The notes beneath the pieces were generated by a model that was not told the DNA's origin, did no database searches, and was given only the letters and a program-made list of their open reading frames with translations. From NCBI GenBank assembly GCA_004296925.1, contig SCVI01000069.1:1-43603 (forward strand): DNA of 43,603 nt, given 5' to 3'. How positions within the stretch are numbered: position 1 is the first letter of the stretch; every line of letters begins with the position of its first letter. The position numbers and the translations under genes were made by a program. This DNA comes from Patescibacteria group bacterium. Its GTDB lineage: Bacteria; Patescibacteriota; Minisyncoccia; Phycocordibacterales; Phycocordibacteraceae. Shown here one piece after another: positions 128 to 40,832 of the stretch.

Positions 128-322
128 GTGACCCTAACGATACAGAACTCAAAACCGCTAGTTGAACATTTGAAGGCAATCAGCAATATAGCGGGAAAGT
201 TCAAAACTCTCCAAAACAAGCCTATTTGGAGCATGGCTCAGAGCAAAGAACTCATCCCCTAATGAAGTTAAAACCTATCAGACATGCTTGATTAGTTGAT
301 TTTCTATCATTTTATACAAAAA

Positions 323-634
323 ATGACTGTAAAACAAAATGGAGGGAGAAGACTTGGAGCTGGAAGAAAGAAAGCACAGCATACTATTGCTACAGAAAAG
401 GCTCGTGAATATTTGATAAAAGAGATAGCAAAAAATCTTGAACCAATAATTACTGCTCAAATTGAAGCAGCAAAAGGAATTTCACATATAGGAAAACAAG
501 GAAGAATATATACTGAACTTCCAAATACAAAGGTTGGAGAATATCTACTGAACCAAGTAGCAGGTAAAGCGGCAATGAGTGTTGAAGTACAAGGAAAAGA
601 AGAACAGCCATTTATTATCGTAATAGACACTTAA
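323..634 (+). CDS. Small basic protein of the island, possible DNA-binding protein
   Basis: ORF track 296..634. The internal ATG at 323 gives MTVKQNGGRRLGAGRKK..., a basic Gly/Arg N-terminus typical of small phage or plasmid DNA-binding proteins. No specific family recognised. Confidence 0.4.
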   Translation: MTVKQNGGRRLGAGRKKAQHTIATEKAREYLIKEIAKNLEPIITAQIEAAKGISHIGKQGRIYTELPNTKVGEYLLNQVAGKAAMSVEVQGKEEQPFIIVIDT

Positions 635-654
635 GCCATTTAAGGCTTCTATAT

Positions 655-2856
655 CTATTGAAAGTGTTCTACAGCAATACTTAGAGGGGGGCTCATATCA
701 CGGATACCTTTAGGAAGATGCATATTTACAAAATTAGTCACGTTTGTTGCTTTCCGTTTTCTCCCAGCTTTATTGATATGAATTACAGGATTTCGTTTTA
801 TTGCTGTTGTATTGCTATGAAAATTAATTACTAAAATATTCGGATTTGATTTAAGCTCTGCAAGCTCTTTTTCACTTATGCTGCTCAATGGTACATCCTT
901 TAGGATTAGCAACTGCTTGGTAGAACCCGTTGCATACAGCAGTCCATTTGGCTTATTGGCAAATTTTGTATCCCAACTTTTTATTACGAATGTGGAAGTA
1001 GAAGTATTATCTAAAGCTGTTTTTTTTGTAGAAATATCTTTTTCATCCAAAGCAACCTCTACTGCCCTCTGAAATACCTCAAACATCTTAAGGTTTACCT
1101 TCGCCACAATGTCTCCTATTTCACGTGCTGCTTCTCTCGTTTGCTCTGCTGTCGCATATAGACGCTCCTCTGGCTTGCTCAAATATTCATACAGTTCAAG
1201 GTGTTTGGTGTATACACTATGAAGATTTATACCGGAAAGATTTTCTCCATCTCTCTCGGAAGTAATCTCTTCATAATCATCAAGAAAAGAATTATCCTCA
1301 AATTTAGTGGGGAGGTCATCCAAATCGTTAGCAGTACGAATTAGCTGTTTCATTCCTTTTATAAATGTCTCATCTTCGGGAAAAAGTTGGTCAAATTTCT
1401 CTAATTCTCGATGCTGTCCTGTCCAAGAGTATCGTTCTAGTTGATCGGCTGAAATATCTAGCTTTTCACTTGGTGTTAAATCTTCTCCTTGAAGCACTCC
1501 CATTCTTGAAAGAAGTAGAACCAAATTCCTTACATGCTCAGAGTCATTAAGATTAATTGTAAACTCTCGTTTTATGTTGTTGTTTGCAAAGGCAAAAACT
1601 TCTGCTTGAAGATGCGAATTAGCTTGCCAAAAGAATTTTGGAATTTTTGAGTAGTATTTATAAAATCGATCAATATAATCATAAATTTTAGCTGCATCAG
1701 TATAGTGTTTATCAATTTTCTTAAGAGTTTCTGTATCTATATATTGTTTTCCCTCTGCATCAAATTCTGATAAGTCATTAAGTAAGTTCTTCAGGGTAAA
1801 GAAATCATTTGCGGATTTAAAGAGAAGAAATTTCTTTAGTTCTCCAGATTCTTCATTCTCTTGCTCTATTGTAAGAACTTTGTCCAAGTATAGATTCATC
1901 TCCTCGCTTGTTGGGGTAGGGAGATAATATACATGGGTAAAAAGCGTAGGGTATTTACTCTCAATACGGCTTTGTTGTGTAAAAGCGTATGCTTTTTGAT
2001 TACAAATAAAAATAAAATGTGCAAATGACCGTCCAAAAAGATTTTTGTATTCTTTAATTGCATCTAGAGCTTCTTCGGCTTCATCTTTATCAAGCTCGTC
2101 AATTATAAAGACAATTTTCTTTCCATCTCTTTTACTTTCTAGCCATTGTTCAAACTTGGTTTCTAAATATTCTGGTGAATCATCAATACTATAACTGTCT
2201 TGGTTTTTAAAAGTGTTTTCAAAAATCTTCTCCCAGCTCCATTCAAATTTAAATCCAAGAGAAAAAGGTAAAGATAATACTCCGATTAGTCCTAGTAATT
2301 TAAGCCAAATACTTTCAAAAAATATACCCAATGTTCCAAATAATATGCCACCTATGACAAGACCAAGGCGTGCAAAGTTCCCTTCAATATTCTGAGTGAA
2401 TTGGGCAAGAATATTTTTCTTCGTTTTGTTGCTTGAAGCATTTAATAGCTCACTTGATTTTTTAAATTGCCCTATACTTTGATAATAGAGCTTTTCTATA
2501 TCAACGTCTTTTGCGAACTGTTCTGTTAAAAAGCTCGCTCTGATAAGGGAGGTTAAAAACGCCTTCCCGATTAAATCCTTTTCCTTCGATGCATCACGCA
2601 ATGTGTGTCCTACATTTACAAAAATAGGAATGATTTCATTACGAATTTCTGAAAGAGCTCTATGAACAAAAGTAGTTTTCCCAACACCTCTTACCGCAGA
2701 TACCAAAATTGTACTGGAAGTATTATTGGATATGGCATGCTTTAAGCTATTGACTTCCTTAACTCTACCTATAAAAACATGCTCATTTCTGTCTTTGCCG
2801 AAACCAAATTGTTCTGACCAATGGTCTCGAAAATAGAGTTTCATATTGCCTAACAA
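655..2856 (-). CDS. P-loop NTPase with transmembrane insertion (KAP-like / AAA_16-like), large helical C-terminal domain
   Basis: 733 aa. FIGRxxE...SAVRGVGKTT forms Walker A. Two hydrophobic helices (LGLVIGGILFGTLGIFF and LLGLIGVLSLPFSLGF) follow, then KIVFIIDELDK forms Walker B and FIFICNQ resembles sensor 1. Membrane helices between Walker A and B are the hallmark of KAP-family NTPases. Confidence 0.7.
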   Translation of the reverse strand: MLGNMKLYFRDHWSEQFGFGKDRNEHVFIGRVKEVNSLKHAISNNTSSTILVSAVRGVGKTTFVHRALSEIRNEIIPIFVNVGHTLRDASKEKDLIGKAFLTSLIRASFLTEQFAKDVDIEKLYYQSIGQFKKSSELLNASSNKTKKNILAQFTQNIEGNFARLGLVIGGILFGTLGIFFESIWLKLLGLIGVLSLPFSLGFKFEWSWEKIFENTFKNQDSYSIDDSPEYLETKFEQWLESKRDGKKIVFIIDELDKDEAEEALDAIKEYKNLFGRSFAHFIFICNQKAYAFTQQSRIESKYPTLFTHVYYLPTPTSEEMNLYLDKVLTIEQENEESGELKKFLLFKSANDFFTLKNLLNDLSEFDAEGKQYIDTETLKKIDKHYTDAAKIYDYIDRFYKYYSKIPKFFWQANSHLQAEVFAFANNNIKREFTINLNDSEHVRNLVLLLSRMGVLQGEDLTPSEKLDISADQLERYSWTGQHRELEKFDQLFPEDETFIKGMKQLIRTANDLDDLPTKFEDNSFLDDYEEITSERDGENLSGINLHSVYTKHLELYEYLSKPEERLYATAEQTREAAREIGDIVAKVNLKMFEVFQRAVEVALDEKDISTKKTALDNTSTSTFVIKSWDTKFANKPNGLLYATGSTKQLLILKDVPLSSISEKELAELKSNPNILVINFHSNTTAIKRNPVIHINKAGRKRKATNVTNFVNMHLPKGIRDMSPPLSIAVEHFQ

Positions 2857-2898
2857 TATGCCCTTAAAAGGGAACCTGCAAGGCGATTATTGCTTATT

Positions 2899-3555
2899 TT
2901 AACTACTCAGACAGTTTTGGTATTCATCATTCAGCAAGACATTTATTTTATCTATTGCTTGTTGTTTGCTCGCCTCAATTTCTTTCTTTTGATTTCCCCA
3001 AAAAGCCTGTTGGTTATTGTAGGCTTCATTCGCTAGTTGCGACGCATTGTAATTATATTGTGAGGTGAGATTAGCTTTTTGAACACCAGTCATCATGGGA
3101 TCTATGGCAGATATCTGAATACTCGCATTACTGTAAATCTTGCTTACTGCATCGTTGTATTGTTGTTGTAGAGCAGCAAATACTTCTTGAAGCTTTTTAT
3201 CTACAGTTGCGTTAAGTTTTTGAATGGAACTATCGTAGGAAGTTTGTTTATCCGCTTTACATTTTTCAATCTTTAAATTTATACTTTCTTGAATACTTAT
3301 TACTGGTTCAGCAACTTTTGCTTCTTGTTGAGGAATCTTTTTTGTTGATTTAGAAACATCCCCAACCTGTTTCTTTTCTTCCTCGATTGGAGCAGCACTT
3401 TCTGATTGAGGAGTTGATATTTGTTCTGCCTGTTGTGATTTTTGTTTCTCGTCAAAATACTTAATCCCGAAATATCCGGCTGTAGCTGTTGTACAGAGAA
3501 GGGCTACTATACCTATCAAAAGAGGTATTTGTATGAATCCTTTTTTCATATGCAT
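2899..3555 (-). CDS. Membrane-anchored coiled-coil protein, Q/N/K/S-rich ectodomain
   Basis: ORF track 2899..3657. The likely start is MHMKKGFIQIPLLIGIVALLCTTATAGYFGI (ATG at 3555 or 3549), because the upstream extension overlaps a 10-bp hairpin. One N-terminal TM helix is followed by a long low-complexity helical region. It lies 42 nt downstream of the NTPase on the same strand. Confidence 0.55.
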   Translation of the reverse strand: MHMKKGFIQIPLLIGIVALLCTTATAGYFGIKYFDEKQKSQQAEQISTPQSESAAPIEEEKKQVGDVSKSTKKIPQQEAKVAEPVISIQESINLKIEKCKADKQTSYDSSIQKLNATVDKKLQEVFAALQQQYNDAVSKIYSNASIQISAIDPMMTGVQKANLTSQYNYNASQLANEAYNNQQAFWGNQKKEIEASKQQAIDKINVLLNDEYQNCLSS

Positions 3556-3654
3556 TAGTCCAGTTAATGCTTTTTGATAAATTTGATAATGACCAACACA
3601 AAACCCGCCACTAAGCTGGGAGGCTTGCGCCTCTGTCAGGGTTTCCCCTGACAA

Positions 3655-3743
3655 CACTGGACATGCCCAAACCTAATGACGGGGTCTGTATGTCCAGTGC
3701 TTTGCTGCCATGCCTAGAGTTTTAAGGCTCTAAGTTTAGGCAT
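3655..3743. repeat. Structured element copy 1
   Basis: A 10-bp stem, CACTGGACAT (3655-3664) with ATGTCCAGTG (3690-3699), encloses the loop motif CCTAATGACGGGGTCTGT. A second stem follows: ATGCCTA (3710-3716) with TAGGCAT (3737-3743). Confidence 0.5.
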
Positions 3744-6608: not shown

Positions 6609-6790
6609 CACCTGATATAAAGATGCCCCGTGAGGGGTTTTCTTTATATCAGGAGGACGAGATTCGAAAACCGGAGCACGAAGGGCGAGGTCGGGCTGGC
6701 GCACTCGACGCATCGTCGCGCCGTAGGGCGTAAGTGAGAACCGGTGTCAAAATGCTTAGTGACGGGAGCCGAATCTCTCCATCTCCGCCA
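6609..6790 (+). repeat. tRNA-Ser 3'-flank module
   Basis: A long hairpin lies at 6611-6653. The antisense T segment GAGATTCGAA lies at 6659-6668, followed by AACCGGAGC, GC-rich hairpins and a terminal GTGAC. The copy CGAATCTCTCCaTCTCCGC at 6770-6788 matches 6591-6609 at 18 of 19 positions and ends in CCA. Confidence 0.6.
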
Positions 6791-29525: not shown

Positions 29526-29699
29526 TGTGGGCGGAAGAGGACTTGGTCACACATAAAATTTCTGACGAAATTTTTGCCCGACCCTGGCTCGGCAATTTTG
29601 CCTTATGCTTCGCATAAACAAAATTACACCTCCGCTTTTCAAGTCCTCACGCACGCAAAACAATTTGCGTGCTTTCCGCCTACACTCGTAAACTCATTG
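29526..29699 (-). repeat. tRNA-Leu(TAG) 3'-flank module
   Basis: The 20-nt repeat TGTGGGCGGAAGAGGACTTG occurs at 29526-29545 and 29698-29717. The plus-strand TTCAAGTCCTC at 29638-29648 is antisense to the T-loop and 3' T-stem on the tRNA strand. GTCAC abuts the distal copy. The hairpin is GCACGCAAA-ACAA-TTTGCGTGC. Confidence 0.65.
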
Positions 29700-30583: not shown

Positions 30584-30762
30584 TTTGTGCCCGGGGTGGG
30601 CGACCAGGAGGTCGTACCGAGAGGGGCTCGGCTACCAGTTTCGGCTCTCCTACGTTCGCCTCTCTGTCAGCCCCAGCTCGCGGTTTTCAGAGACTGAAAA
30701 CACCGCTCCGCTTTTCGAGTCCAACACGCATACGAAGCAGTTCGTATGCTCCAATCACTTTG
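30584..30762 (-). repeat. tRNA-Leu(TAA) 3'-flank module
   Basis: The 17-nt repeat TTTGTGCCCGGGGTGGG occurs at 30584-30600 and 30759-30775. The plus-strand TTCGAGTCCaAC at 30713-30724 matches the T-loop and 3' stem sequence at 11 of 12 positions, in antisense orientation. The hairpin is GCATACGAA-GCAG-TTCGTATGC. Confidence 0.6.
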
Positions 30763-30844: not shown

Positions 30845-30889
30845 AGGCACCACTATTTCTACCATGAAAAATTCTTAGACTACAGTTTT

Positions 30890-31030
30890 GAGGCCATGGC
30901 GGGAATTGGTCACCCGTCATTTTGTGCCGTCACACAAAATGCGCTCGACCCCGACTCGGCATTTCGTGAGACACAAAATATGCCTCCGTCTTTCAATTCC
31001 CGACGTAAAGCGTGCAGATGCTTTACTCAA
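30890..31030 (-). repeat. tRNA-Cys 3'-flank module
   Basis: The 19-nt repeat GAGGCCATGGCGGGAATTG occurs at 30890-30908 and 31033-31051. The plus-strand TTCAATTCCCG lies at 30992-31002. GTCAC abuts the distal copy. The scaffold motif GCTCGACCCCGACTCGGCA (30943-30961) matches the Leu(TAG) module at 29576-29594 at 16 of 19 positions. Confidence 0.65.
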
Positions 31031-38465: not shown

Positions 38466-38501
38466 AAAAAAGTGCTACGCTAGTCGCTGGCCCAGTATTT
38501 T

Positions 38502-38584
38502 GCGTCGGTACTCAAGTGGTCAACGAGGGGAGACTGTAAATCTCCTGACTTCGGTCTTCGTTGGTTCGAATCCAACCCGGCGCA
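38502..38584 (+). tRNA. tRNA-Tyr (anticodon GUA), long variable arm
   Basis: GCGTCGG-TA-CTC..GGGAGA-CTGTAAA-TCTCC-TGACTTCGGTCTTC-GTTGG-TTCGAAT-CCAAC-CCGGCGC-A. Confidence 0.9.
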
Positions 38585-38748
38585 CAGAAACAAAAACCAG
38601 CCCCTCAGGGGGCGATTTTTGTCTGTGCGTCGGAGCAAGGCATAGGAATGCCTTGCGTGTTGGATTCGAAAGGTCGAGCATCTGAGTAAGCGAAGCGCTC
38701 AGGCGAGACCTGTACAGGGTTCTGTAAGAACCGAATCCAACCCGGTGC
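38585..38748 (+). repeat. tRNA-Tyr 3'-flank module
   Basis: A long hairpin lies at 38585-38626. A copy of the 5' acceptor strand, TGCGTCGG, lies at 38626-38633. The hairpin GCAAGGCAT-AGGA-ATGCCTTGC follows. The antisense T segment GTTGGATTCGAA lies at 38659-38670. The copy CGAATCCAACCCGGtGC at 38732-38748 matches 38567-38583 at 16 of 17 positions. Confidence 0.65.
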
Positions 38749-38850
38749 TCACCCTGCGAAGCGCAGGCCCTCACTTCCCTGCGGAAGTCCCGATGCCGGA
38801 CCCTTCCGCCTTTTTCATCCTTTAACTATCATCCTGAGGGAACAATTAAT

Positions 38851-39755: not shown

Positions 39756-39870
39756 CTACATAGTCATATGTAAAGATCCGAAAGGATTCGAACCGTAGCC
39801 GTAGGGAGCGAAGAGCGACCGTAGGTCTCGAGTCGCAGTAGCGACGAGAGGCGAATCCTTGTGGGCCCGC
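39756..39870 (+). repeat. tRNA-Trp 3'-flank module (short form)
   Basis: The antisense T segment AAGGATTCGAA lies at 39782-39792. The 19-nt copy CGAATCCTTGTGGGCCCGC at 39852-39870 is identical to 39738-39756. Confidence 0.65.
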
Positions 39871-39957
39871 CTTCGTCCGACGTAGCCTTGGCGAAGTTGG
39901 AAATCGCCTCGTCTAGTCGTACTACGGCGGGTAAACCCGCCAAAGTCGAATACAAAT

Positions 39958-40194
39958 ATGTATTACGTCTATATCCTAAGGTGTGCAGACCAAAAACCGT
40001 ATACTGGTTGCACAGAAAATATTAAGGAACGACTAGAACGTCACTCAAAAGGTTACGTACCTGCGACGAGAGAACGTCGTCCTATCAATCTCACTCAATA
40101 TGTGGCATTTCAAGATAAGCAAAAAGCTTTTGAGTTTGAAAAGTATCTTAAATCAGGTTCTGGTAGGGCTTTTATAAAAAAACATCTTTCTTGA
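39958..40194 (+). CDS. GIY-YIG nuclease-domain protein (stand-alone URI domain)
   Basis: 78 aa, with YYVYILRCADQKPYTGCTENIKERLERH. Confidence 0.75.
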   Translation: MYYVYILRCADQKPYTGCTENIKERLERHSKGYVPATRERRPINLTQYVAFQDKQKAFEFEKYLKSGSGRAFIKKHLS

Positions 40195-40250
40195 TGTAGT
40201 AAAAAGAAACCATAACCCTTTTCCTTCAAAAAGAGTATTATTAATACCGT

Positions 40251-40832
40251 ATGCGTGAGGGGTATGAATCGAGTGCATCCGTGAACTCTGATAATCAAGG
40301 ATACGAACATCACCATAAAAGTGCGCGTATTAAATTACGCGGATTATCGCCATCAATATTTGGAAGCGCGTTAGACGCAACGAGACGTATATTTCCTAAG
40401 GTAAGCGATCAGCAGGACATTGAAGAGGCGTATCGAATGAGTCTTGAACCAGAAATATTTGAGAGTGAACTTAAGAAACAAGGTATACGCTCACTTAAAT
40501 ACTGGGTAGCTACAAAATCAAAGAAGTCACACGAAATTGCAGGAGTAACGGGACTTGAAACAATGTTAGAAGATGAGCCGGAGGTGGCATGGCTTGGATG
40601 GTTTGGCGTGACACCTGAGTTTCGCGGTAAAGGATTTGGGCGATCGTTACTCAAGACAACGATTTCTAAAGCGAGAACGATTGGTTTTGATAAATTGAGA
40701 TTGTGGACAACCACTGCCCCCGAAGAGATTGCTGCGCAAGACATGTATGAAGATTTTGATTTTCGATTGACGGGAGATGAAGAAATCCCTAATTCGGCAG
40801 AGTTTAAGCTCTACCGGGAAAAAACACTTTAA
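40251..40832 (+). CDS. GNAT family N-acetyltransferase
   Basis: WFGVTPEFRGKGFGRSLL (acetyl-CoA binding motif A). Confidence 0.7.
   Translation: MREGYESSASVNSDNQGYEHHHKSARIKLRGLSPSIFGSALDATRRIFPKVSDQQDIEEAYRMSLEPEIFESELKKQGIRSLKYWVATKSKKSHEIAGVTGLETMLEDEPEVAWLGWFGVTPEFRGKGFGRSLLKTTISKARTIGFDKLRLWTTTAPEEIAAQDMYEDFDFRLTGDEEIPNSAEFKLYREKTL

What the first reader, a model, noticed from the sequence alone, without database searches (positions are those of the whole stretch)
38502..38748. The Tyr module also copies the 5' acceptor strand, so it could fold into an acceptor/T-arm minihelix mimic
After a long terminator-like hairpin (38585-38626) the module contains TGCGTCGG (38626-38633), identical to the tRNA-Tyr 5' end. 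A hairpin follows, then the 12-nt antisense T segment. The distal copy supplies the T-loop, 3' T-stem and acceptor 3' strand. Pairing acceptor-5' with acceptor-3', and antisense-T with the T portion, would give a coaxial helix of about 17-19 bp. That helix would resemble the acceptor/T minihelix of tRNA-Tyr, with about 60 nt inserted where the T-loop would be. The Leu(UAG) module has the same feature: GGCGGAA lies before its hairpin. Minihelices are substrates or ligands for CCA-adding enzyme, RNase P, RNase Z, EF-Tu and some synthetases, so a mimic could be a decoy or a regulator.
Basis: inference. Interest (0 to 1): 0.6.

Follow-up and report, generated by a model that had tools for sequence, protein, structure and literature searches.

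The report
tRNA-tail hairpin modules copying their tRNA
Behind tRNA-Tyr, and behind most other tRNA genes of this tiny groundwater bacterium, sits a roughly 100-200-base insert that carries an inverted and a direct copy of that tRNA's own last 20 bases around a conserved folded core, and no description of it was found in Rfam or the papers searched.

Summary
Every element is at the stated coordinates. Folded alone, 38624-38752 gives the proposed helix (z -6.0).

It is not special to Tyr:
- In this 787-kb genome, 25 of 45 tRNA genes carry a copy (at most 4 mismatches in 18) of their own 3' end within 400 nt downstream (24 at 77-197 nt, one at 375). None of 45 has one upstream.
- Each module reads: trailer (often a terminator), inverted copy of the tRNA tail (often split by a hairpin), core, direct copy.
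- Cores fall into at least four families. Type B has strong covariation and occurs behind tRNAs in Saccharibacteria, Kaiserbacteria and other Patescibacteria. No Rfam family matches.

Modules behave as discrete, strain-variable insertions with edges exactly at the tRNA end or at the copy end. They form arrays and truncated relics.

The arms track the real tRNA and are not compensatory with each other. The closest ortholog has lost the acceptor half of the distal copy.

Best reading (0.4): a folded-hairpin insertion or cassette end that imitates the tRNA gene's tail, laid out like CTX-phage attP at dif or an integron attC.

No enzyme was identified and no RNA data exist.

The parts
38502..38585 (+). 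tRNA-Tyr(GUA) gene. No CCA is encoded; the gene ends ...GCGCA-C and is followed by A.
   Evidence: ARAGORN; Rfam RF00005, 53.1 bits.
38567..38586 (+). Proximal copy: the tRNA's own T-loop (from C56/G57), 3' T-stem, 3' acceptor strand, discriminator and 2 further bases.
   Evidence: Reference copy of direct repeat D1.
38585..38627 (+). Trailer: a terminator-like hairpin (stem 38600-38613, then GATTTTTGTC), bidirectional. Its A and T tracts extend the palindrome out to the tRNA's acceptor strand (arms 38577-38594 and 38616-38633).
   Evidence: I1, I2.
38626..38633 (+). TGCGTCGG: the inverted copy of the 3' acceptor strand, which equals the tRNA's 5' acceptor strand. It can pair leftwards with the real tRNA tail or rightwards with the distal copy.
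   Evidence: D5, I2; folds.
38635..38656 (+). Hairpin P1 (9 bp, loop AGGA), which splits the inverted arm. In G029 its sequence is entirely different but it is still a hairpin.
   Evidence: I6.
38659..38670 (+). Inverted copy of the T-loop plus 3' T-stem (GTTGGATTCGAA).
   Evidence: I3, I4.
38671..38731 (+). Core, type C. It has a hairpin AGGTC...GACCT with a GCGAAGC tip, then GTACAG, then the hairpin GGTTC-TGTAA-GAACC. That last stem covaries in other type C copies (GCTTC/GAAGC, CTCC/GGAG, TTCC/GGAA).
38732..38751 (+). Distal direct copy of the tRNA tail, 18 of 20 identical (C>T at 38746, A>T at 38749).
   Evidence: D1.
38586..38822 (.). Strain-variable segment. In contigs of runs X2 and X4, which are otherwise close (39 other letters in 7516 for X2), these 237 nt are replaced by 2330 other letters. 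The left edge is the exact tRNA end.
   Evidence: table 5; table 8, records 4 and 10.
39757..39870 (+). Module behind tRNA-Trp (type B core). Its distal copy at 39853-39870 is identical to the tRNA in 18 of 18 positions. Strains X2 and X4 diverge exactly from 39871.
29527..29698 (-). Module behind tRNA-Leu(UAG) (type A core). GGCGGAA lies at 29680-29674 and the distal copy at 29544-29527 (18 of 18). In X2 the core (29551-29637) is replaced by 80 other letters while the arms are kept.
30587..30761 (-). Module behind tRNA-Leu(UAA). It is absent at the orthologous site of G014, where the flank follows the tRNA directly.
30888..31030 (-). Module behind tRNA-Cys (type A core).
6610..6788 (+). Module behind tRNA-Ser(CGA).

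Best explanation
The Tyr 'module' is one member of a large family of insertions that sit exactly at the 3' end of tRNA genes in this Patescibacteria lineage.

Each unit has four parts:
- a short body, often only a terminator hairpin;
- an inverted copy of the tRNA's last ~20 nt (T-loop, 3' T-stem, 3' acceptor strand), often split by a hairpin;
- a conserved structured core, of which there are at least four families (type C here);
- a direct copy of the same ~20 nt.

Most likely it is the attachment end of a site-specific, hairpin-forming insertion element or cassette. In single-stranded form the two arms anneal into a stem that reproduces the duplex of the tRNA gene's tail. This folded site would recombine with the tRNA gene's end and leave the tRNA intact. 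Behind it would remain 'body - inverted arm - spacer - direct arm'. That is the layout CTX phage leaves at dif, and it resembles an integron attC at the end of a cassette. The body can be almost empty, as here, or carry genes.

Shown:
- the anatomy;
- its specificity for the neighbouring tRNA;
- the exact insertion edges;
- presence or absence between species, and variation between strains;
- arrays and truncated relics;
- the covarying core structure.

Inferred:
- that a single strand folds in vivo;
- that recombination, not some other process, places the unit;
- that the genome's only tyrosine recombinase (Xer-like) or another host enzyme does it;
- that homology checking, or template switching at the palindromes, keeps the arms matched to the tRNA.
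For: 1. Scale and specificity.
- 25 of 45 tRNAs in G000 have a downstream copy of their own tail; 0 of 45 have one upstream and 1 of 45 match a swapped tRNA tail.
- In the complete genome G014 the figures are 13 of 36 downstream (one is a neighbouring tRNA gene) and 1 of 36 upstream.
- By BLAST, module sequences occur next to tRNAs, at contig ends, in C10 beside a tRNA-Asn 3' fragment, and as one 34-nt hit in C63 that was not looked at.

2. Discrete insertion.
- At tRNA-Leu(UAA), Lys(CUU) and Gly(GCC), one of G000/G014 has the module and the other does not.
- The downstream flank is shifted by the module length: 169 against 175 nt, 181 against 186, and about 160 against 164.
- For Leu(UAA) and Lys(CUU) the flank visibly resumes right after the distal copy.

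3. Variation within the species, at exact edges.
- 38585->38823 is replaced by 2330 nt.
- 39870->40301 is replaced by 240 nt.
- The core at 29551-29637 is swapped for 80 other nt, with the arms kept.

4. Turnover and arrays.
- Orthologous tRNA-Tyr genes carry type A, B, C or D modules, minimal modules, tandem mosaics, or nothing.
- G014 tRNA-Arg(GCG) is followed by four truncated 'core end + partial copy' relics.

5. Cargo. Behind G014 tRNA-Gln(UUG) come a module, then a 3-kb islet (a ParB-like gene plus a DNA methylase), then a collapsed core remnant and another copy of the tRNA tail.

6. The layout equals that of integrated CTX phage. That phage has two target-like sites in opposite orientation about 90 bp apart, which fold into a hairpin. 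Integration leaves one functional site and two non-functional copies (PMC3089051, passages read).

7. The core is a folded single strand.
- In the type B alignment of 25 sequences, 96.4% of cells pair and 13 of 22 pairs change on both sides.
- 0 of 500 shuffles reach these values, and the slid controls give at most 6 such pairs.
- The sense strand folds better than the antisense strand in 47 of 54 modules.

8. Hints for DNA rather than RNA.
- GCGAAGC occurs 17 times on the sense strand and 2 on the antisense strand in 53 modules. That is 1.82 per kb against 0.079 per kb in the genome.
- GAA and GTA triloops are the commonest hairpin tips, and GNRA tetraloops are rare. That GNA triloops mark stable DNA mini-hairpins is recalled, not tested.
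- Terminators lie before the core in at least 22 of 53 modules.
- The arms are not compensatory.

9. An Xer-type tyrosine recombinase is present. It scores 250.8 bits on NF040815, above the cut-off of 220.
Against: - No enzyme is tied to the modules. The Xer-like gene is ordinary and was not tested.
- No free or circular form of a module was seen, and none was looked for in reads.
- Trailers and P1 hairpins are not conserved between same-type modules behind different tRNAs. There is therefore no sign of recent hopping between tRNAs within a genome.
- How arms come to match some 30 different tRNAs is unexplained.
- Type B joining regions are invariant across deep lineages, with one never-varying G-U pair and helices that have diverged by compensatory change. 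This is also what a functional RNA family looks like. Columns 15-31 of that alignment are invariant by construction in 24 of its 25 rows, because those rows were found with an exact 17-mer.
- Modules sit on tRNAs facing either way relative to replication in G014: about 13 co-oriented and 6 head-on with modules, against about 10 and 6 without. This is my tally. It is unlike elements of the IS200/IS605 kind, which depend on the lagging strand.
- As DNA, both strands of the Tyr module fold about equally well, -32.7 and -30.5 kcal/mol.
Confidence: 0.4

Rival explanations
1. The module is a functional RNA framed by a tRNA-like helix. It would be transcribed from the tRNA promoter by read-through. 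The arms would form an acceptor/T-like helix that tRNA-processing enzymes (RNase P, 3' trimming, CCA addition) or tRNA-binding proteins recognise. The conserved cores (types A-D) would be the working parts. Alternatively, the antisense arm would act in cis on the tRNA precursor.
For: - The predicted fold is strong (z -6.0).
- The sense strand is more stable than the antisense strand in 47 of 54 modules.
- The type B core has RNA-like covariation, conserved joining regions and G-U pairs.
- Modules always face the same way as the tRNA.
- RNase P RNA and the CCA-adding enzyme are present.
- No RNase Z was found in 0 of 61 genomes of the order sample, although most tRNA genes lack an encoded CCA. 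Unusual 3'-end processing is therefore conceivable.
- The alternative fold lets the tRNA body pair with the distal tail.
Against: - Terminators lie between tRNA and core in at least 22 of 53 modules, and no promoter-like site lies inside the Tyr module.
- The arms are not compensatory, and G-U does not exceed A-C.
- The acceptor arm is present in only 26 of 63 modules, and the acceptor part of the distal copy is lost in the G029 ortholog.
- A given tRNA has the module, lacks it, or has another type in sister species and strains.
- Relics and arrays exist.
- Hairpin tips are GNA triloops rather than GNRA.
- No Rfam family matches.
Confidence: 0.25
2. The modules are scars of ordinary integrase-mediated islands at tRNA genes. 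On this reading they are the attL and attR arms left after the interior of the island was deleted, as with tRNA-integrating islands and their partial-tRNA repeats.
For: - Direct repeats of the tRNA tail that start in the T-loop are the classic signature of integration at tRNA genes. That class of site is recalled, not tested here.
- A 3-kb islet flanked by such repeats exists in G014.
- Tycheposons and tRNA fragments are described in print. I saw only the search listing and abstract starts for 10.1101/2020.12.28.424599 and 10.1101/2022.07.05.498093.
Against: - No integrase lies in or beside the modules, and the genome holds only one tyrosine recombinase.
- The distal copy is not preceded by a local inverted core-type site. 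Its partner lies 60-110 nt upstream.
- Core hairpins covary, which protein-binding att arms need not do.
- More than half of all tRNAs are affected.
- The type B motif was not found as a module in viral contigs; the 2 hits there are both unrelated.
Confidence: 0.1
3. The modules are a passive by-product of replication template switching at palindromes. The terminator hairpin and the self-complementary T-loop word TTCGAA would prompt fold-back copying. That copying would first write the tRNA tail in reverse and then again forward. Cores would be later growths in the loop, with no function and no mobility.
For: - The arms end at the T-loop palindrome.
- In several modules the inverted arm continues the terminator palindrome without a break (G014 Arg(GCG), L007; I2).
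- Minimal modules with 16-20-nt cores exist (L011 and C111 Arg(UCG)).
- The arms track the tRNA, as templated correction would predict.
Against: - This does not explain core families conserved, with covariation, from Saccharibacteria to Kaiserbacteria.
- It does not explain why the event recurs at most tRNAs of some genomes.
- It does not explain the swapping of whole cores between strains.
Confidence: 0.1

Closest known systems
CTX-phage type attP(+) hairpin integrating at dif by host XerCD (IMEX elements)
   Same: - Two copies of the target-like site lie in opposite orientation, separated by about 90 nt.
- They can fold into a roughly 150-nt hairpin that imitates the target duplex.
- After integration there is one functional target site plus two non-functional copies.
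- The element carries no recombinase of its own.
- Tandem arrays are possible.
(PMC3089051, passages read; PMC3442271, abstract start.)
   Different: - The target here is the tail of a tRNA gene, not dif.
- Dozens of different arm sequences exist, one per tRNA.
- The body is 0-75 nt in most copies, so no replicon is present.
- No single-stranded phage was seen.
- The spacer holds conserved, covarying structures.
Integron attC sites and gene cassettes
   Same: - Each is an imperfect inverted repeat with a variable middle, lying at the 3' end of an inserted unit.
- Recognition would be by the fold of one strand rather than by sequence.
- There are extrahelical features, with P1 as the parallel here.
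- Cassettes range from empty to gene-bearing and form arrays.
These attC properties are recalled, not read here.
   Different: - No integron integrase is present. TIGR02249 scores 139.7 bits against a cut-off of 265 on the Xer-like protein.
- There is no attI platform.
- The arms copy the neighbouring tRNA.
- The direct repeat is about 20 nt, not 7.
tRNA-integrating islands with partial-tRNA repeats (tycheposons and the like)
   Same: Insertion at tRNA genes that keeps the tRNA whole, a downstream partial copy of the tRNA, arrays, and strain-variable cargo (10.1101/2020.12.28.424599, listing and abstract start only).
   Different: The modules are 100-200 nt, without a recombinase gene, with an added inverted copy and structured cores. 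They affect over half of the tRNAs.
REP/REPIN elements with RAYT (Y1 HUH) transposases
   Same: - They are small, non-coding, hairpin-forming and extragenic, and present in many copies.
- Three RAYT-like genes are present in G000.
   Different: - The RAYT-like genes are each flanked by their own perfect palindromes, which are unrelated to module cores.
- G041 has a type C module but no Y1 match.
- Module arms are specific to each tRNA.
tRNA-like RNA modules (viral tRNA-like structures, bacterial Y RNA YrlA, mascRNA, tmRNA's tRNA-like domain); recalled, not tested
   Same: A helix that imitates the acceptor and T arms of a tRNA, formed by the two ends of a longer RNA.
   Different: - Here the T-loop itself is paired away.
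- The copy is of the adjacent tRNA and there is one per tRNA.
- No expression data exist.
- The arms do not covary with each other.

Membership tests
tRNA (Rfam RF00005) or tRNA pseudogene | Cloverleaf scored by the tRNA models | tested here: not met
   ARAGORN and Rfam call only 38502-38585. Nothing in 38586-38751 is called at the gathering score or at E<=1.
Any described RNA family (Rfam 15) | A match to a curated covariance model | tested here: not met
   No match in the modules of the window at the gathering score, nor in 9 loci at E<=1. Only chance-level hits of at most 24.7 bits appear.
CTX-type IMEX hairpin attachment site | Two target-like sites in inverted orientation about 90 nt apart that can fold into one hairpin | tested here: met
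   The inverted arm lies at 38626-38633 and 38659-38670, and the direct arm at 38732-38751, with a 61-nt spacer. The fold has z -6.0 as RNA and -5.9 as DNA.
CTX-type IMEX hairpin attachment site | Integrated state: one functional target site plus two non-functional copies | tested here: met
   An intact tRNA tail, the inverted arm and a decaying distal copy are all present. The layout was compared with PMC3089051.
CTX-type IMEX hairpin attachment site | Target is dif, and integration is catalysed by host Xer on a single-stranded replicon | tested here: not met
   The target is a tRNA gene tail. No replicon is present, since bodies are 0-75 nt. An Xer-like gene is present, but its role cannot be tested with these tools.
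Integron attC and cassette | An integron integrase (IntI) nearby or in the genome | tested here: not met
   The only tyrosine recombinase scores 139.7 bits on TIGR02249 (cut-off 265) and 81.2 on NF011946 (cut-off 435).
Integron attC and cassette | An imperfect inverted repeat with a variable centre at the 3' end of each inserted unit | tested here: met
   A gene-bearing unit ends in a collapsed core plus copy in G014.
Classical integrase att scars at tRNA genes | An integrase gene within the repeats, or inverted core-type sites directly flanking the crossover | tested here: not met
   No ORF fits inside the modules. PF00589 finds one gene in the genome, about 3 kb from the nearest tRNA. The sequence just 5' of the distal copy (GTGACC, GAGAGGC, AAGAACC) is not the T-stem complement.
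REPIN/RAYT system | RAYT gene flanked by its cognate repeat, and the same repeat dispersed | tested here: not met
   The RAYT-like genes are flanked by other palindromes. The C91 palindrome is not dispersed, with 7 loose matches of which 4 lie around the gene. NF047646 scores 34-40 bits, below the cut-off of 80.
IS200/IS605 mini-elements with TnpB guide RNA | TnpB or IscB gene present; strand bias relative to replication | tested here: not met
   PF07282 finds 0 matches in G000. Modules lie on tRNAs of both orientations in G014 (my tally).
IS110 bridge RNA, retron or group II intron, casposon | DEDD transposase, reverse transcriptase or Cas1 in the genome | tested here: not met
   PF01548, PF00078 and PF01867 each find 0 matches in G000, which is 97.7% complete.
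Acceptor/T minihelix substrate of RNase P or CCA-adding enzyme | Cleavage by RNase P or CCA addition; a conserved acceptor helix with a free 3' tail | tested here: inconclusive
   The helix is predicted here, but the acceptor arm is found in only 26 of 63 modules and is lost in G029. Enzyme assays cannot be done with these tools.

The most novel reading that the evidence does not exclude
Patescibacteria may harbour a previously undescribed, integron-like insertion system that uses tRNA gene tails as landing pads. Units of any size, from a bare terminator to multi-gene islets, would end in a folded single-strand site whose stem is a copy of the target tRNA's last 20 bp. Target choice would then be written in the element's own arms and could be reprogrammed. 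The conserved cores (A-D) would be the recognition or catalytic parts, and some could even be ribozyme-like or guide-like RNAs acting on their cognate tRNA.
Probability: 0.3. Interest if true: 0.85.

Novelty: new variant of a known kind. Interest (0 to 1): 0.8.

Why it matters
If the modules are hairpin attachment ends, they show a way to aim DNA insertion at an essential, conserved gene without harming it. The address would be carried as a self-complementary copy of the target. That bears on how the tiny, recombinase-poor genomes of Patescibacteria gain and swap genes, and on programmable recombination.

If they are RNAs, they are several new, phylum-wide structured RNA families tied one-to-one to tRNAs, in an order of bacteria where no RNase Z was found.

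Either way there are practical consequences. The modules explain assembly breaks at tRNA loci in these genomes, since contig ends fall inside modules. They should also be masked or annotated when tRNA fragments are called.

Tried and rejected
Known RNA families. Rfam gave nothing for the modules, either at the gathering score on the window or at E<=1 on 9 loci.

Guide-RNA or transposon enzymes in G000 (97.7% complete).
- TnpB PF07282, reverse transcriptase PF00078, IS110 PF01548 and Cas1 PF01867 all gave 0 matches.
- I therefore dropped omega-RNA, bridge-RNA, retroelement and casposon readings.

RAYT link.
- Three Y1_Tnp genes are present, and the family occurs in 48 of 61 relatives including G000, and in 32 of 32 genomes of the genus.
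- Each gene has its own flanking palindromes, unrelated to the cores.
- G041 has a module but no Y1 match. I rejected RAYT as the likely enzyme, though it is not excluded.

GIY-YIG nucleases. Three small genes abut tRNAs or modules in G000, but the three in G014 do not. This is left as an observation.

RNase Z. None was found in G000 or in any of 61 genomes. Since genomes with and without modules alike lack it, this cannot separate the readings.

Expression. No RNA holder was listed.

Viral contigs. The type B 17-mer gave 2 hits, both unrelated coding sequence without a tRNA.

Metagenome contigs. The type C motif had 94 stretches with a match. Of the 80 loaded as loci, 0 lie within 250 nt downstream of a same-strand tRNA. 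The hits are chance matches and the pattern also misses known type C variants.

Phylum sample.
- The type B model matched 0 of 100 other genomes (at most 45 candidates were scored per genome, with stricter filters).
- Among 60 relatives it matched 7: six of 32 in the genus and one weak hit.

Replication-strand bias. None was evident.

Far copies of tRNA tails (more than 400 nt downstream, at most 2 mismatches). Among 163 tRNAs in the sequence held, there was one.

Literature.
- Eight searches found no description of such modules.
- TIGR-Tas (PMC12045711, passages read) is a different thing: 36-nt box C/D-like guides in arrays.
- Supplements were not opened.
- The library lacks most subscription journals, so 'not in print' means only 'not found in these searches'.

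Full report
WHAT IS AT THE SITE

tRNA-Tyr(GUA) occupies 38502-38585. The following elements lie downstream, all on the same strand:
- A terminator-like hairpin (arms 38585-38605 and 38607-38627; stem 38600-38613 followed by a T run).
- TGCGTCGG at 38626-38633, which repeats 38501-38508.
- A 9-bp hairpin, P1, at 38635-38656.
- GTTGGATTCGAA at 38659-38670, the reverse complement of the T-loop plus 3' T-stem.
- 61 nt of core.
- CGAATCCAACCCGGTGCTCA at 38732-38751, which matches the tRNA's last 20 positions (38567-38586) in 18 of 20.

TGCGTCGG is best described as the inverted copy of the 3' acceptor strand. Together with the antisense T segment it forms an inverted copy of the tRNA's last ~20 nt, interrupted by P1.

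- As RNA: -57.9 kcal/mol, z -6.0.
- As DNA: -32.7 kcal/mol, z -5.9. The opposite strand as DNA gives -30.5 kcal/mol.

With the tRNA included, the lowest-energy fold is different. The inverted arm pairs with the real tRNA tail and encloses the terminator and P1. The tRNA's 5' acceptor strand pairs with the distal copy. The inverted arm can therefore pair either leftwards or rightwards.

IT IS A GENOME-WIDE SYSTEM

The window is contig C30 of a 787-kb, 129-contig genome, 97.7% complete.
- Of its 45 ARAGORN tRNAs, 25 have their own 3' 18-mer (at most 4 mismatches) within 400 nt downstream: 24 at 77-197 nt and one at 375 nt.
- None has it upstream. Only 1 of 45 matches when another tRNA's tail is tried.
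- Several more tRNAs have degenerate modules.
- In the complete genome of a congener (G014, 748,944 bp), 13 of 36 tRNAs have the downstream copy, one of which is a neighbouring tRNA gene. One of 36 has it upstream.
- By BLAST, module sequence in G000 is found next to tRNAs, at contig ends, in C10 beside a tRNA-Asn 3' fragment, and as one 34-nt hit in C63 that I did not examine. Contig ends inside modules show that the modules break the assembly.

ARCHITECTURE AND CORE FAMILIES

The unit is always: tRNA; trailer; inverted arm; core; direct arm.
- The inverted arm always covers the T-loop and 3' T-stem. It includes an acceptor part in 26 of 63 modules.
- The direct arm starts at T-loop position 56/57 and runs to 1-3 nt past the discriminator.
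- Sorted by crude end motifs, 54 distinct modules fall into type A (22), B (8), C (5), D (3) and 16 others, including minimal ones with 16-20-nt cores. The Tyr module is type C.
- The type C terminal hairpin keeps the loop TGTAA while its stem covaries: GGTTC/GAACC, GCTTC/GAAGC, CTCC/GGAG, TTCC/GGAA.

Type B is the best defined family.
- Of 81 matches, 24 lie 11-149 nt downstream of a same-strand tRNA, with the full core and mostly a distal copy. Five more show the full core without a tRNA call in range. The rest are unrelated sequence, mostly GC-rich coding.
- By record title, the genomes holding them are Saccharibacteria, Kaiserbacteria, Harrisonbacteria, Taylorbacteria, Paceibacterota, Parcubacteria and 'Patescibacteria group' genomes.
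- An alignment of 25 type B cores gives a three-way junction with 22 pairs. 96.4% of cells pair and 13 pairs change on both sides (94 cells). 0 of 500 shuffles reach this, and the slid controls give at most 6 pairs and 12 cells.
- Columns 15-31 are invariant by construction in 24 of the 25 rows, because those rows were found with an exact word.
- The model built from the alignment finds the 5 copies in G000. It also finds copies in 7 of 60 relatives, six of them among the 32 genomes of the genus and usually several per genome. It finds none in a 100-genome sample of the phylum. Type B is thus patchy but deep.
- No Rfam family matches any module.

MODULES ARE DISCRETE, VARIABLE INSERTIONS

- At three tRNAs one of G000/G014 has a module and the other has none. 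The downstream flank is shifted by the module's length. For Leu(UAA) and Lys(CUU) it visibly resumes right after the distal copy.
- Orthologous tRNA-Tyr genes of 29 relatives carry type A, B, C or D modules, minimal modules, tandem mosaics, or nothing.
- The G029 module is 93% identical to this one, while the adjacent clpB-like gene is 77% identical.
- Contigs from other samples that hold close strains differ at exact edges:
  - 38586-38822 is replaced by 2330 letters in two runs, and the left edge is the last base of the tRNA.
  - 39871-40300 is replaced by 240 letters, and the left edge is the last base of the Trp module's distal copy. In G000 this stretch holds a small GIY-YIG ORF.
  - The Leu(UAG) core is replaced by 80 other letters with both arms kept.
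- G014 tRNA-Arg(GCG) is followed by a full type B module and then four truncated 'core end + partial copy' units.
- G014 tRNA-Gln(UUG) has a module, then a 3-kb islet with a ParB-like gene and a DNA methylase gene. After the islet come a collapsed type A remnant and another copy of the tRNA tail.

DO THE ARMS BEHAVE LIKE AN RNA HELIX?

There are 83 positions in 63 modules where the distal copy differs from the tRNA.
- The inverted arm is Watson-Crick to the tRNA at 63 of them and to the distal copy at 7.
- In the T part, whose register is fixed by the core, the figures are 18 and 0 of 20.
- Arm mismatches are G-U 42 and A-C 36. The acceptor arm was located by likeness to the tRNA, which biases that part.

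In G029 the distal copy ends after the T-stem, so no acceptor-like helix can form there. The inverted acceptor segment remains and is perfectly complementary to the real tRNA.

RNA OR DNA?

For a strand-specific fold:
- The sense strand is more stable than the antisense strand in 47 of 54 modules. This set includes one duplicate and one false module.

For DNA:
- GCGAAGC is about 23-fold enriched and strand-specific: 17 sense against 2 antisense, or 1.82 per kb against 0.079 per kb genome-wide.
- GAA and GTA triloops are the commonest tips of perfect hairpins, and GNRA loops are rare. That C-GNA-G triloops make unusually stable DNA mini-hairpins is my recollection.
- A terminator-like hairpin with a T run precedes the core in at least 22 of 53 modules, against 13 of 53 after the module.
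- No promoter-like site lies inside the Tyr module.

For RNA:
- G-U pairs and conserved joining regions appear in type B.

No RNA run was listed, so expression is untested.

WHICH ENZYME?

- The genome has no TnpB, reverse transcriptase, IS110 transposase or Cas1.
- It has one Xer-type tyrosine recombinase.
- It has three RAYT-like Y1 genes. These are each flanked by their own perfect palindromes, unrelated to module cores.
- One genome with a type C module has no Y1 match.
- Modules lie on tRNAs of both orientations relative to replication in G014 (my tally).
- No enzyme is therefore tied to the modules. The Xer-like protein is a candidate only by analogy.

BEST EXPLANATION AND ITS LIMITS

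The order 'intact target site - body - inverted copy - spacer - direct copy' is what a circular single strand leaves when a hairpin that imitates the target recombines with it. CTX phage does this at dif. Its attP1 and attP2 lie in opposite orientation about 90 bp apart and form a 150-nt forked hairpin. Integration yields one functional dif and two non-functional copies (PMC3089051, passages read). Integron attC sites are a second analogue (recalled).

I therefore read the modules as folded-hairpin attachment ends of insertion units whose body ranges from a bare terminator to kilobases. My confidence is 0.4.

Points against:
- No enzyme, circle or junction was seen.
- Trailers are not shared between same-type modules at different tRNAs.
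- How the arms are matched to each tRNA is unexplained. Homology checking during strand exchange, or templated correction of quasi-palindromes, are guesses.

Rivals:
- Scars of ordinary integrase-borne islands (0.1).
- Passive template-switch products (0.1).

COMPARISON WITH WHAT IS KNOWN, AND NOVELTY

Eight literature searches found no description of tRNA-specific inverted-plus-direct tail copies around conserved cores. Rfam has no such family. The nearest known kinds are hairpin attachment sites (CTX/IMEX, attC) and tRNA-integrating islands with partial tRNA repeats. The modules meet the layout features of the first and fail the defining target and enzyme features of all of them (see the membership table). 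I rate this a new variant of a known kind. If the cores turn out to be active RNAs, it would be further from anything known.

Noticed in passing
window 39958-40194 (+); also G000 C104:863-1081, C85:39363-39569; L029 1227-1493: Small GIY-YIG nuclease ORFs (78-100 aa, catalytic domain only) abut tRNA genes or modules. The one in the window lies in a 430-nt stretch that other strains replace with 240 nt. That stretch starts exactly at the end of the tRNA-Trp module. In G014 the three homologs are not near tRNAs.
   Followed up: partly
G000 C91:29775-29996, C17:208-447, C79:2139-2384; G014 near 522 kb, 201 kb and 746 kb: Three RAYT-like Y1 (HUH) transposase genes of 224-235 aa are present. Each is bracketed on both sides by its own long perfect palindrome. 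The family is present in 32 of 32 genomes of the genus, at 1-8 copies.
   Followed up: partly
G000 whole genome and 60 relatives: No RNase Z (TIGR02651) was found in any of 61 genomes. By eye from the listing, 32 of 45 tRNA genes of G000 lack an encoded CCA. Modules look commoner behind CCA-less genes (about 26 of 32) than behind CCA-encoding ones (about 6 of 13). RNase P RNA (C115:4430-4795, 84.8 bits, below the gathering score of 100) and a CCA-adding enzyme (C111:21526-21903) are present.
   Followed up: partly
window 3620-3742 (-): LOOT RNA (Rfam RF03000) matches at 80.7 bits, above its gathering score of 46.4. It is a structured RNA of unknown function.
   Followed up: no
window 38752-38822: The 71 nt after the distal copy hold further small hairpins, including CCTGCGAAGCGCAGG with the GCGAAGC tip. 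They belong to the strain-variable segment and may be a relic of another module.
   Followed up: no
L055 (G014:400001-420000) 291-3660: Behind tRNA-Gln(UUG) lie a module, then a 3-kb islet with a ParB-like 461-aa gene and a DNA adenine methylase-like 294-aa gene. After the islet come a collapsed core remnant and a second copy of the tRNA tail.
   Followed up: partly
G000 C37:15829-16230: The tRNA-Asn module is 375 nt long and holds three copies of a roughly 22-nt repeat (GAAAGGTACCTGACACCGTTTC) between the inverted arm and the distal copy.
   Followed up: no
L008 and G014 near 374,170-374,240 (tRNA-Trp module): Some type B cores carry a roughly 60-nt insertion inside the small GCGGGC...GCCCGC stem, and the same insert occurs in two genomes. 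This is nested insertion within a core.
   Followed up: no
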